From Callorhinchus milii (Eukaryota), in NCBI RefSeq assembly GCF_018977255.1, contig NW_024704743.1, forward strand, positions 15,564,001-15,628,000: a DNA stretch of 64,000 bases, given 5' to 3'. The notes under the pieces are model-generated. The model saw only the letters and a list, made by a program, of their open reading frames with translations, had not been told where the DNA came from and searched no databases. A program made the position numbers and the translations under genes. Within the stretch, counting starts at the first letter, position 1. Each line of letters opens with the position of its first letter. Positions 6,301-61,459 of the stretch are shown piece by piece.

Positions 6301-7227
6301 CATCTCCAAGCGCTTCACACAATATACTGTACAGTGAAGTGACTGTATATTTTATAGGCAAAACATTGTTAGACCAGATGCCTCACAGTCTAACAATGTG
6401 CCCCAATGTTAACATTTAGCAGACAACCCCAATTGCACTGGTATGAATCATTCCATTCCCACAGCAACCATCCTATATCTCTGAGTGCAATTGTAATTTG
6501 TGCAGAATTAGTGATGGTTTTGTGCTGTGGCCTTGTGCTAGCTAGGAACTGAGTTGAGATTGCCCAGGCTCCCCTCGTAGTGGACCATTTTGTCTGGTAT
6601 GCAAGAGGTTCTCATCCCATCATTCACAGTTAGATTGAAGTGCAAGTCTGAGACAGAAAGCTAATGTCCATTGCCCAGTTTTCTTAACTGGTTAATTCCA
6701 TTTGTTTGCAGTTCCCTGGCTTGGTTGGTAATGTATGAATTACATCCTACATTTTCTGATACAACAACACATTTATACAGTGCCCTTCACTCAGGAATCT
6801 TGGAGCATTGTTAAATACAGAAAAAGTATTTTCAATAGTACATTCACTGGTAAAGCTAATATAAGGATCAGTAGCATTTATTTTGATTCTGTGAATTTCT
6901 ATTTTTCTAGTGTGTAAAATCCAGGCCCTATATATTACAGCTTCATCACTTAAGTCTGGCTGCAGTGTTTCCTGAATGTTCCCCTCCCATCCCTGCATAC
7001 ACACATACACTGACTGCTGTTATGCTGAGCTATGATCTAAGCTGTTTATTCAGAAATCTAAGACAAAAAAAATTGATGAACGGAAATCACACAGAATTAT
7101 GAAAATTCTCAGGCTATACACTTGCACATGAGGGCACCCCCTCGAGTGCCATGAAATTAACTTGAGTAAAATAAAGTTGAAATGATAAACTAACATTCTT
7201 GTTTCATCCTTGAAAGTGTAATAAAAT

Positions 7228-29360: not shown

Positions 29361-29466
29361 CACCACACCCGCTTTTCCCGTCCTTCCACCCGCCTGTTCC
29401 AATCGATGTCCGACATCACGAGGGACGTTACCATTATGACCCCTCTCCCATCGCACCGCTACACGT
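29361..29466 (+). CDS. GLI3: GLI3 coding exon (equivalent to human exon 4), 106 nt, phase 1 to 2
   Basis: Acceptor cattttctttcattttacag| and donor |gtgagt. Translates [35 protein letters not shown](V), compared with recalled human GLI3 [36 protein letters not shown]. Confidence 0.95.
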
Positions 29467-29704
29467 GTGAGTATCACCTGCACCAGAGCCTCTGTGTCTT
29501 GGATAACCTTGTTGCAGTACGAACTGCAGAAAAGTTTGTGGTATTATCGTTAAAGAGGGAATGTCAGCGTCACTTTGAAATCAAACCGAGAATTAGCATT
29601 TGTATCAAATTATTAAAAAAAAGTTAAATTAAAAAAATGTTATATATAATATATATAATGTGTGTGTTGTGAGTATGTGTGTGTATTATATATAATATAC
29701 TGCA

Positions 29705-58419: not shown

Positions 58420-58563
58420 CGTACTGTGAACATGCCTGCCGCCACCTCCCTTTCCCCATCTCTCCCACCCCTCCATCCCCTCCCCTTTGCTCGGTACCAA
58501 CCCCCTCCCTCTAAAGATGTTGCTCTACGTGAAAGTGCTATATAAATGCAAGTTGTTGTTGTA
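58420..58563 (+). mobile_element. L2 3' end ending about 32 nt upstream of the exon 5 acceptor
   Basis: ctacgtgaaagtgctatataaatgcaagttgttgttg. Confidence 0.8.
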
Positions 58564-58594
58564 GTAACCAACACTCATTTCTATTCCCTTTTAG

Positions 58595-58797
58595 GCCTCC
58601 CATTTCAGGTAGTCCGGCGTTTTCTGACATCTCGCTCATCAGAATTTCCCCACACCGAACGCCTACTGGTGCTTCAGAGCCAGTATTTAACCCTCCTCAC
58701 CCATATGTTAACCCCTATATGGACTACATACGGTCTCTGCACAGCAGCCCTTCTCTGTCTATGATCTCTGCAGCCAGGGGACTCAGCCCTGCTGATG
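58595..58797 (+). CDS. GLI3: GLI3 coding exon (equivalent to human exon 5), 203 nt, phase 2 to 1
   Basis: Acceptor tttctattcccttttag| and donor |gtgggt. Translates (V)[86 protein letters not shown] is the GLI3-type sequence. Confidence 0.95.
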
Positions 58798-59125
58798 GTG
58801 GGTGTTGTCTGAATATTTGTTTCCTTGAAATGAGTTACAATGTGTAACATTTTTAAAGAATATATATTTTTTAATGAGTTCCAAGAAGTAATAATGAATC
58901 CACAAAGATTTTTGAGCTTTATCATAATCACTGGCAGTATTAAAACATTTTATGTTATATTCATTTCATACAGCGTTTAAGCAACTTAACTTGTACTTTA
59001 AAGCTATATTGACCCAATAATCTGGTTGCTTTTTGTTTTATAAAGAAAAGGTTGTTGTGAATTTTAAAGTCTTGACTGATAAAATTTGTCTGACTGTTCC
59101 GATTTTCTCCTTCGGTAAATCGCTA

Positions 59126-59300
59126 GGGTCTAATATGCGACAATTTCTAACGGATTCCTTAATGAGGAAACTGAAATAACATCGTGTTCACTTGCAGGAA
59201 CTCTGCGCCAATGCAGACTTCCCGTGGGTCACTACTAAAGTACTTTTGGTCAAGATTCCTCATTAAGGAATCCCATGAGAAATCATTGCATTTTAGACCC
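59126..59300. mobile_element. MITE-like element, 175 bp, with ~50-bp imperfect terminal inverted repeats
   Basis: Left end gggtctaatatgcgacaatttctaacggattccttaatgaggaa; reverse complement of right end gggtctaaaatgcaatgatttctcatgggattccttaatgaggaa. A solo end also occurs at about 55766-55800. Confidence 0.8.
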
Positions 59301-60584
59301 CATTATTGTTCTTTAACCCAGACATTACACTGCAGAAATCAGGAGAACAGAATAATTGCTTGAAGGATTGAAGTCTCTTTTATTGAATTCATGGGATGGG
59401 ACGGCAGAGGGTGCATACTCAACGAAGCTCTCAAATACAAACACAAATACTGGATCCACTTCAGATCAATCAGCGGTCTTAAGTGAAAAATAGGTTAAAC
59501 TTCAGGTCAGATGAAGTGATCCTAAGTTATATGTTAACCTATTTGTCTGTTACAGCTGCTCACTGTGAAGTGATGTAGATTGCCTGCCTTTTTAGTACTT
59601 AGAATGACAGTTTCCTCTTTATATCTTTAGCAAAAAAGATATAGTTCATGAAAGAGATGGACGCACAGGTTCAGCAGAAGCTGCATAGCATTAAACAGTC
59701 CCTCATCATGCATTTGCAGAACGTTAACTTAATAACAGTTTTAAAGTGACTCAATAAAACACTTCCAGTTTTGCTCTTGGCCTTTTCTGAATCCCTCGAC
59801 TGGGCCACAGACTTGAGATCAGTAATGAGCAAACCTCAGCATCCTGCTTTCTCGTCCAGAAGTCCAAAAACAAAATATGTTGAAGCAAAGAATTGAATGG
59901 TTTCAGTGAAAATCTTCTGGAATTCATTTCACTGAAATGAAAAAGAATCTCTGAAACTATCTGAGACATTGATGGGAATTACTGTCAGCGTTAACCAGAG
60001 GTGACGCATGTGTTTTTAAATGTCACCTGTGATTTGCTAGGAGTGACGCTGTACTTTCTCATTTAGTTTTGCCACAGACCTGTCCTTCATATTGCAAATC
60101 CCCATCAGTTGCAGAGACCTGTGCTGCTCTCAAATCACTCACTGGCTAAATGCACTGTGCAGTATGTAACTGAAAGATACAGTGCAGGAAGGTCAAAGCT
60201 TTAATCCCTGCTCTCTGCTGGATTTCCCAGAGTGCTGCTTTTGTGGGCTAGCGGAATATTCAGTTGGTTTGCAACCCAATAAACCCTGCTGAGAATGTAT
60301 AGGTGAATGAGGGCAGAATTGGGCTTGAATCTGACACTTGAACAGCCTCCCAACACAATCCATACGCACTTGAAGGATGACCACTTAGACCAGAGCTTGT
60401 GTGGAACTAAACCTCAGGATTAGGATCAGTCACCATCTTCAGGAGAGATGGGTGGGGAGAGGGAAAATTCTGCATTAAGTTGATATGAATATTTTATGAC
60501 TATTTCAATTTAATATTAATATAATAATACATTTATTAATATTAATATAATAATATAATTACAATAGGGAAATAATCATTCCCC

Positions 60585-60715
60585 AAAAAATTTGGCTGCC
60601 TTTTTTTGCCACAAAATACAGTCAATCCACTTTACAGAATATTCTGTGAAGCGCTTTGAGCTGTCCCAACGATGTGATTAGGTGTTATGTCAAATGTATG
60701 TATTATTATGATTAT
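60585..60715 (+). mobile_element. SINE 3' part in intron 5
   Basis: tttggctgcc…cacaaaatacagtcaatccactttacagaatattctgtgaagcgctttgag…tcaaatgtatgtattatt. Confidence 0.85.
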
Positions 60716-60795
60716 TATGAATATGCAGATGCTTTTGTCTATTTCAAAGCCGTCTAGTTATGTTTTTTTTGTTTGTGTAACCCTCAACTCCGCAG

Positions 60796-60831
60796 AACTA
60801 TCTAAAGGATGGAATGTGTTTGGATTTTCAG
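60796..60831 (+). CDS. GLI3: Putative alternative in-frame 5' extension of exon 6 ([12 protein letters not shown])
   Basis: Upstream acceptor tgttttttttgtttgtgtaaccctcaactccgcag| lies 36 nt before the second acceptor, with an open frame and no stop. Confidence 0.55.
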
Positions 60832-60978
60832 CACCCCATGCTGCAGTCAGCCCAGCAGAATACTACCACCAAATGGCTCTGTTAGCAGGCCATCGCAGCC
60901 CATATGGTGACATCCTTCCTCCAGCCAATGCCACCAGTGCCGGTGCTCTTCACATGGAATATCTCCATGCCATGGAGG
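60832..60978 (+). CDS. GLI3: GLI3 coding exon (equivalent to human exon 6), 147 nt, phase 1 to 1; possible 5' extension to 60796
   Basis: Acceptor ggattttcag| and donor |gtgagt. Translates [49 protein letters not shown], compared with recalled human [49 protein letters not shown]. Lies within ORF-track entry 60687..61019. Confidence 0.93.
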
Positions 60979-61459
60979 GTGAGTGGTCGAGCAGAGAGAT
61001 GTCAACTGTGTGGCGTTAAATGAAATGTTTTGTTGAAACAAACCATCTATGGGAAATTAACAATTATTGCAAAGTTACATTGTCATACCAATCAAATTAT
61101 ACTTTGAGGAAAGAAACCCCTCAAAAAACAAGCTCTGGTTTGGTCGTTAAATTTAACTCTGTTTATTTATGGGGAAAGATCAAAGATAGTTTCAGAAACA
61201 TAACATTGTTTTTATTTTAGCTAGTCTTATTTTGAGTTTTAACTTATTAGATCTGGGAATGGGCTTCACATTAGATAAACCTTTGGCCATTTTAGGAGGG
61301 TCAGAATTATGAGTTTCTCCAACAACATATCACGTGGTCTGTTGGAATATGTTTGCATGGACCTATGGCAGGTCTAGAAATCTGTCATGTCTCTGAAAGT
61401 GAGCTTATAATGGAACAAAAACATCCAACCCTAGAGGAAGGGAGTGAAAATACAGTTGG

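What the first reader, a model, noticed from the sequence alone, without database searches (positions are those of the whole stretch)
60761..60840. In-frame tandem acceptor at GLI3 exon 6 encodes a GLI2-like 12-residue segment
Seen: two AG acceptors 36 nt apart (…ccctcaactccgcag|60796 and …ggattttcag|60832) with an open frame between them. The upstream one has a T-rich tract and a branch-like gtaac, and it is the first AG after that motif. Using it gives …[19 protein letters not shown]. Recalled knowledge: mammalian GLI3 reads SPTD-APH with no insert, whereas GLI2 has SPAD-VAQEHLKERGLFGLP-APG at the same junction, and that GLI2 segment is removed by an alternative acceptor in some isoforms. 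VFGFSAP aligns with LFGLPAP. Inference: this GLI3 may retain an ancestral GLI2/3 alternatively spliced micro-segment in the repressor domain, dating from before the paralogues duplicated and absent from the canonical mammalian GLI3 protein.
Basis: partly seen in the sequence, partly recalled or inferred. Interest (0 to 1): 0.75.

Follow-up and report, generated by a model that had tools for sequence, protein, structure and literature searches.

The report
Chimaera-only extension of GLI3 exon
In this cartilaginous fish the developmental gene GLI3 can be spliced to add 12 amino acids that were seen in no other species' GLI3; the variant is real and already in gene-prediction databases, but its likeness to the sister gene GLI2 is more likely chance than an ancient relic.

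Summary
Acceptors AG|60796 and AG|60832 lie 36 nt apart, in frame. The gene is GLI3; the best hit is Callorhinchus milii GLI3 at 100%. RefSeq isoforms X1/X3/X5 already carry the 12 residues and X2/X4 lack them. One spliced contig in 1 of 4 runs joins 58797 to 60796.

The relic reading is weaker than proposed. GLI2's segment is present in 84 of 85 junction-spanning records, and the published human GLI2 alternative acceptor is at exon 9 (PMC1435915). GLI2's segment lies after the exon-opening xPH motif, which GLI3 keeps; the new 12 residues lie before it. GLI2's K-[DE]-R-G core is not kept. Only this species has the insert (6 of 162 GLI3 records).

For the relic: the in-register likeness beats shuffles (P 0.004-0.008) and shows a codon-like DNA pattern.

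Best reading (0.65): a lineage-restricted upstream acceptor, tolerated in a disordered repressor region. Relic about 0.2.

The parts
58595..58797 (+). GLI3 exon 5 homologue (203 nt), ending in a phase-1 donor
58798..60795 (+). Intron 5 when the upstream acceptor is used (GT..AG, 1998 nt)
   Evidence: joint 58796-60795, 'skips 1998, GT..AG (cut +1)' in run X4
60758..60795 (+). Upstream acceptor region: T-rich tract, branch-like GTAAC (60777-60781), C-rich run, CAG at 60793-60795
   Evidence: sequence; single copy in the genome search, which skips common words; branch-site role inferred from recalled consensus
60796..60831 (+). 36-nt alternative extension coding 12 residues; also the 3' intron end of the ordinary acceptor (branch-like CTAAA with its A at 60805, weak in-frame AAG at 60805-60807, TTTTCAG)
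60832..60978 (+). GLI3 exon 6 core (147 nt), starting at the ordinary acceptor; donor GTGAGT at 60979
   Evidence: the 9-residue junction form is in 147 of 162 GLI3 records
29363..29467 (+). Upstream GLI3 coding exon (exon 4 homologue, approximate ends)
   Evidence: tblastn residues 153-187 at 100%

Best explanation
An alternative 3' splice site gained in the chimaera lineage. Intron 5 of GLI3 normally ends at CAG|60832, the acceptor that corresponds to GLI2's. In this species a second CAG 36 nt upstream, behind an AG-free T/C-rich stretch, is also used (shown by one spliced contig and RefSeq models). It turns the old intron end into coding sequence and adds 12 residues after the residue matching mammalian D226. 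That is inside the mapped repressor region (106-236), which is disordered, and away from its known key residues H141 and H157. The insert is most likely tolerated with little effect (inferred). Its F-G-F-S end is what a TTT-GGA-TTT-TCA-G acceptor tract spells, and the likeness to GLI2 is mostly chance (inferred).
For: Use of 60796. Restriction: 6 of 162 junction-spanning GLI3 records carry it, all C. milii; none from 19 shark and ray species, gar, bowfin, sturgeon, reedfish, teleosts or tetrapods. Position: 21 of 21 distinct GLI3 short junctions score higher against GLI2's exon start than against its columns 16-18. GLI3's first six residues score 22.0 against the lamprey exon start and 1.4 against the lamprey residues in register with EYY. 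MAFFT in two modes puts the insert in its own columns before xPH. Amphioxus SPHDGMTAA aligns without a gap to GLI3's nine residues (mean 24.4). Core lost: the insert scores 9.7 against 18 GLI2/lamprey segments, whose own leave-one-out scores are 27-54. Other species-restricted variants occur at this junction (pipefish, gar). A stop-containing intron end of GLI1 in the same genome also reads like this exon, so such look-alikes may arise by chance. Disorder and boundaries: PMC3798401 (abstract), PMC2697317 (parts 1-2 of 3).
Against: The insert scores 11.3 in the one ungapped register with GLI2's EYY anchor, and -11 or lower in the 12 other registers. Shuffle P is 0.004 (exact register) and 0.008 (best of 13); 13 of 2391 window 36-mers reach it. 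DNA identity to own-genome GLI2 by codon position is 6/12, 8/12, 2/12, a coding-like pattern (P 0.003; not independent of the protein score). None of 29 read-through intron ends of other GLI3 genes reaches it (maximum 3.5). The xPH argument against gnathostome GLI2 rests largely on one histidine, because the first residue is constrained by the phase-1 G and the proline matches either way. No other chimaera and no shark intron DNA was available.
Confidence: 0.65

Rival explanations
1. Ancestral relic. The early vertebrate exon carried the segment as in GLI2. GLI3 lost it when a new acceptor arose at the pyrimidine-rich L-F-G-L-P codons (nCA-G). Chimaeras alone kept 12 of the 15 residues behind a second, shifted acceptor.
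For: Ungapped, in-register likeness: 4 of 12 identities plus L/V and L/F; P 0.004-0.008; codon-position pattern 6/8/2. A lamprey GLI has the segment, so it is older than jawed vertebrates on at least one GLI branch. Histidines occur in the proline run of lamprey GLI and of own-genome GLI2, so an internal PH is possible.
Against: It needs two acceptor shifts, a separately derived PH, independent loss in bony vertebrates and in sharks/rays, and decay of the most conserved residues while the frame survives. Score 9.7 against 27-54 for true members. The lamprey gene falls with GLI1+GLI2 in the best tree (61/54, unresolved; AU p 0.14-0.31 for the alternatives), so it does not prove that GLI3's ancestor had the segment. 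Amphioxus lacks it. GLI2's segment is constitutive in 84 of 85 records.
Confidence: 0.2
2. The upstream acceptor has become the main one in this species, and the short form is minor or partly an annotation carried over by homology. This concerns usage, whatever the origin.
For: The only junction displayed is the long one, and its contig runs unbroken across 60832. RefSeq gives the long form in 3 of 5 isoforms. The upstream site has the longer AG-free zone and the higher pyrimidine share, 0.63 against 0.53.
Against: One contig at depth 5.79 in one run. Contigs drop rare variants, one joint row was hidden, and a filter removes human-like records. RefSeq X2/X4 and three UniRef records use the short form.
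Confidence: 0.1
3. Splicing noise: a rare mis-splice picked up by gene prediction, with no meaningful protein product.
For: Open in-frame upstream acceptors are common (175 of 754). RefSeq X-isoforms are predictions, and this species' X1/X2 also carry another 28-residue insert that X3/X4 lack.
Against: A rare event would hardly be the assembled path in a low-depth run.
Confidence: 0.05

Closest known systems
RefSeq predicted isoforms X1/X3/X5 of Callorhinchus milii GLI3 (XP_007896289, XP_007896292, XP_007896294)
   Same: Exactly this 12-residue insert at this junction; X2/X4 are the short form.
   Different: Predictions only. I found no paper on the isoform (listings only).
GLI2 exon-start segment (xPH-EHLK[DE]RGLFGL-proline run; human exon 5) and its lamprey counterpart
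   Same: Same junction, same phase, similar length; 4 of 12 identities in register; within the part of GLI2 needed for repression (PMC1435915).
   Different: Constitutive in 84 of 85 records; lies after xPH, not before it; the K-[DE]-R-G core is nearly invariant there and absent here.
Human GLI2 51-nt alternative acceptor (17 aa, intron 8/exon 9; PMC1435915)
   Same: An in-frame upstream alternative acceptor in a GLI gene; mouse lacks the extension, so it is lineage-restricted. This is the closest mechanistic parallel.
   Different: Another junction and another paralogue.
Lineage-restricted alternative 3' splice sites (exon extension into the intron end), a general known class
   Same: Two competing in-frame AGs, a short 3n extension in a disordered region, one lineage only.
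   Different: Here the extension resembles a paralogue's constitutive segment more than shuffles do.

Membership tests
Alternative 3' splice site (in-frame exon extension) | Two AG acceptors sharing one donor, spaced 3n, without a stop | tested here: met
Alternative 3' splice site (in-frame exon extension) | Upstream acceptor used in transcripts | tested here: met
   one spliced contig in 1 of 4 runs; RefSeq X1/X3/X5, which may rest on the same kind of data
Alternative 3' splice site (in-frame exon extension) | Downstream acceptor also used in this species | tested here: inconclusive
   annotated in X2/X4 and UniRef; no such joint displayed (one row hidden, contigs only)
Alternative 3' splice site (in-frame exon extension) | Inclusion level and tissue regulation | not testable with these tools
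   only contigs were offered
Homologue of the GLI2/lamprey exon-start segment | Similarity above chance in register | tested here: met
   score 11.3; P 0.004 exact register, 0.008 best of 13; weak, and the case was picked because of the likeness
Homologue of the GLI2/lamprey exon-start segment | Conserved K-[DE]-R-G core | tested here: not met
   only K kept; 9.7 against 27-54 for members
Homologue of the GLI2/lamprey exon-start segment | Position downstream of the exon-opening xPH | tested here: not met
   21 of 21 short junctions and both MAFFT modes favour GLI3 xPH = GLI2/lamprey exon start; an internal second PH cannot be excluded
Ancestral GLI2/3 alternatively spliced segment | The segment is alternatively spliced in GLI2 | tested here: not met
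   84 of 85 records keep it; the exception is a gene prediction; human GLI2 variants described in PMC1435915 are elsewhere or skip whole exons; few mammalian GLI2 records were seen
Ancestral GLI2/3 alternatively spliced segment | Segment older than the GLI2/GLI3 split | tested here: inconclusive
   lamprey has it but is unplaced; amphioxus lacks it; own-genome GLI1 shows no such exon
Ancestral GLI2/3 alternatively spliced segment | Traces in other GLI3 orthologues | tested here: inconclusive
   0 of 156 GLI3 records without the insert show the segment, including the short C. milii ones; 0 of 29 read-through intron ends; other chimaeras and shark intron DNA not available

The most novel reading that the evidence does not exclude
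The 12 residues are a decayed survivor of the segment that GLI2 and a lamprey GLI still carry. GLI3 would then have lost part of its repressor region by moving a splice acceptor into coding sequence, and chimaeras would keep the intermediate two-acceptor state after more than 400 million years, giving a natural long/short pair for asking what the segment does to GLI repression.
Probability: 0.2. Interest if true: 0.55.

Novelty: already known. Interest (0 to 1): 0.25.

Why it matters
As most likely read, it matters little: one species has a short extra stretch in a disordered region, and RefSeq already predicts it. It does show that an intron end can mimic a paralogue's peptide. If the relic reading were true, it would be a rare preserved intermediate of splice-site shift between vertebrate paralogues. 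It would also show how GLI2 (mainly activator) and GLI3 (mainly repressor) came to differ by 15 residues in the repressor region, which could be tested in a simple reporter assay.

Tried and rejected
Run search: no RNA holder listed on record; five runs that hold a small share were guessed to be RNA. Three of the four runs laid (X1-X3) showed no contig over most of exon 5 or over exon 6; their depth sits on two repeats. This is no evidence either way.

Repeat origin of the extension: a DNA search of 60715-60835 found only itself, and that search skips common words. Not supported, not excluded.

Other chimaeras: three protein searches and one representative search returned no recognisable one. 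One search listed 120 of 266 hits and one search listed 150 of 216.

A turtle model with an 8-residue insert (P0174, P0099) looked like support. I rejected it because it matches donor-side intron read-through seen in P0310 and P0316. Pipefish 6-residue inserts are unlike GLI2. The 12-residue difference between lamprey isoforms X1 and X2 lies at another exon. The shortened junctions in P0296 (cobra GLI2) and P0278 (monkey GLI3) are single gene predictions.

Trees did not place the lamprey gene. One search kept the trait columns and two partial GLI2 rows. One search removed the trait columns and left out six rows, among them P0410, P0286 and P0328. PMC2235844 (passages) reports (GLI1,(GLI2,GLI3)) by neighbour joining; my trees gave GLI1+GLI2 at 84-88, unstarred. 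The order is open.

Paper searches gave nothing on this junction in their listings. No structure or complex prediction was run, because the region is disordered.

Full report
WHAT IS THERE. The window holds three coding exons of a GLI3 gene. The best protein hit is Callorhinchus milii GLI3 at 100% identity. Exon 5 (58595-58797) ends in a phase-1 donor. Intron 5 can end at CAG|60796 or CAG|60832, 36 nt apart with no stop, giving either the ordinary junction or one with 12 extra residues, [12 protein letters not shown]. Two further in-frame AGs exist (AAG|60808, CAG|60847). The T-rich tract lies upstream of the branch-like GTAAC, whose A is 16 nt from the AG. The 36 nt hold a second branch-like motif 27 nt before the ordinary acceptor. 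These branch-site readings rest on a recalled consensus. The geometry alone is unremarkable: 175 of 754 pyrimidine-preceded YAG sites in the window have an open in-frame YAG 12-60 nt upstream.

IS IT USED. The 12-member C. milii cluster holds six records with the insert (RefSeq X1, X3, X5 in two versions) and six without (X2, X4 and UniRef models). I laid 4 of the 12 listed runs. Run X4 has one 246-nt contig, depth 5.79, that joins the exon 5 donor to 60796 with GT..AG ends, covers the whole long exon and runs on into the next exon. No joint to 60832 was displayed, but one row was hidden, contigs drop rare variants, and human-like records are filtered out. X1-X3 had no contig over the exons. 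So use of the upstream site is shown once; the ratio of the forms is unknown. RefSeq's models may rest on similar data and are not independent support.

DISTRIBUTION. Of 446 proteins held, 256 spanned the junction by my pattern; the rest were fragments, other exons or pattern misses and were dropped. After moving four pipefish GLI2-like rows that the script misfiled, there are 162 GLI3 records: 147 with the 9-residue junction, 6 with this insert (all C. milii) and 9 other variants. These records are redundant (isoforms, database copies). The 19 shark and ray species seen all lack the insert. No other chimaera turned up. Of 85 GLI2 records, 84 keep the segment; one cobra gene prediction lacks it. 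Few mammalian GLI2 records were among them. PMC1435915 (parts 1-2 of 5 read) puts the human GLI2 51-nt alternative acceptor at intron 8/exon 9, describes whole-exon skipping in the repressor region, and finds exons 4-5 needed for repression.

IS THE INSERT HOMOLOGOUS TO GLI2'S SEGMENT. For: with the EYY anchor fixed and no gap, the insert pairs with GLI2 columns 4-15 at 4 identities and a mean BLOSUM62 score of 11.3, while all 12 other registers score -11 or lower. Shuffles give P 0.004 for that register and 0.008 for the best of 13; 13 of 2391 YAG-ending 36-mers of the window reach the score. At DNA level the identities to own-genome GLI2 by codon position are 6, 8 and 2 of 12 (P 0.003), the same signal seen another way. 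None of 29 in-frame read-throughs of other GLI3 intron ends (unnamed records, bony-vertebrate-like by their exon sequence) exceeds 3.5. A lamprey GLI has the segment. The case was chosen because of the likeness, so these P values overstate it.

Against: true members, lamprey included, score 27-54 against each other, the insert 9.7, and the K-[DE]-R-G core is reduced to K. GLI2 and lamprey exons open with xPH and carry the segment after it; GLI3's ordinary exon also opens with A/V-P-H. All 21 distinct GLI3 short junctions fit GLI2's exon start better than columns 16-18. GLI3's first six residues score 22.0 against lamprey APHDGL and 1.4 against the in-register alternative. MAFFT in two modes sets the insert in its own columns before xPH. 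Amphioxus SPHDGMTAA matches GLI3's nine residues without a gap (24.4), although MAFFT aligned its SPHD with the end of exon 5, and I could not see its intron position. If the exon starts are homologous, the 36 nt are intron in every GLI gene and cannot be the GLI2 segment. A caution: against gnathostome GLI2 this argument rests mostly on one histidine. A further warning comes from own-genome GLI1, which shows no exon 6 homologue, yet whose intron end reads in frame as V-P-H, a stop, an aromatic pair and a proline run, scoring 56 locally against lamprey. Either C-rich intron ends mimic this exon by chance or that is another remnant; I could not tell. Trees left the lamprey gene unplaced: best with GLI1+GLI2 at 61/54, and no alternative rejected (AU p 0.137, 0.307, 0.204). 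PMC2235844 (passages) supports GLI2+GLI3 as sisters, my trees weakly GLI1+GLI2. So an origin before the GLI2/GLI3 split is not shown.

HOW IT MOST LIKELY WORKS. Shown: two in-frame acceptors, and use of the upstream one. Inferred: branch-site choice upstream or inside the 36 nt decides which AG is used. The long form adds 12 residues after the position of mammalian D226, inside the minimal repressor region 106-236 (PMC2697317, parts 1-2 of 3). That region is intrinsically disordered, with key residues H141 and H157 (PMC3798401, abstract). Predicted SUFU contacts lie elsewhere (bioRxiv 10.64898/2026.01.06.698042, passages; its supplements are closed and could hold alignments of this region). 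An insert there is probably tolerated, which fits a near-neutral gain in one lineage (0.65). The relic model (0.2) is mechanically possible, since L-F-G-L-P codons can form a pyrimidine tract and CAG. It needs two acceptor shifts, a separate PH, two losses and decay of the core.

NOVELTY. The isoform is already in RefSeq as a prediction. My searches of the held library found no paper on it (listings only; also PMC5010894, abstract, on the rarity of splice-site shifts in oomycetes). The scan's earlier notes hold nothing on this place or on GLI genes. Verdict: real, annotated, species-restricted as far as seen; ancestral reading possible but unlikely. Interest 0.25.

Noticed in passing
L021:6860-6960 (own-genome GLI1, contig C27): GLI1 keeps homologues of exons 4, 5 and 7 but shows no exon 6 in the 1-kb intron. 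The intron end, after an AG at 6876-6877, reads in frame as V-P-H, a stop, then an aromatic pair and a proline run, resembling the lamprey/GLI2 exon start. Chance from a C-rich tract, or a remnant.
   Followed up: partly
window 58535-58567 and 60609-60700: High-copy repeat fragments (SINE-like tails by eye) just upstream of both the exon 5 and exon 6 acceptors; they dominate the laid contigs.
   Followed up: no
window 60806-60807 and 60845-60846: Two more in-frame AGs at this junction; use not seen.
   Followed up: partly
P0125 residues 42-69 (outside the window): C. milii GLI3 X1/X2 carry a further 28-residue insert that X3/X4 lack.
   Followed up: no
P0410 (unnamed, 429 aa) and P0276 (unnamed, 259 aa): Divergent vertebrate-type GLI proteins. 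P0410 has a short junction without the GLI2 segment and a GLI3-type RKRT motif; it could be a jawless-fish GLI3-like gene, but its branch was too long to place.
   Followed up: partly
P0087/P0136/P0138, P0167/P0173, P0278, P0296: The same junction shows other annotated variants: a 6-residue insert in three pipefish species, loss of all 9 residues in gar X3, and predicted forms in a monkey GLI3 and a cobra GLI2 that start at the glycine, like amphioxus.
   Followed up: partly
P0341/P0415 against P0419/P0416 (lamprey GLI): Lamprey isoforms X1 and X2 differ by 12 residues at an earlier exon junction, unrelated to this finding.
   Followed up: yes
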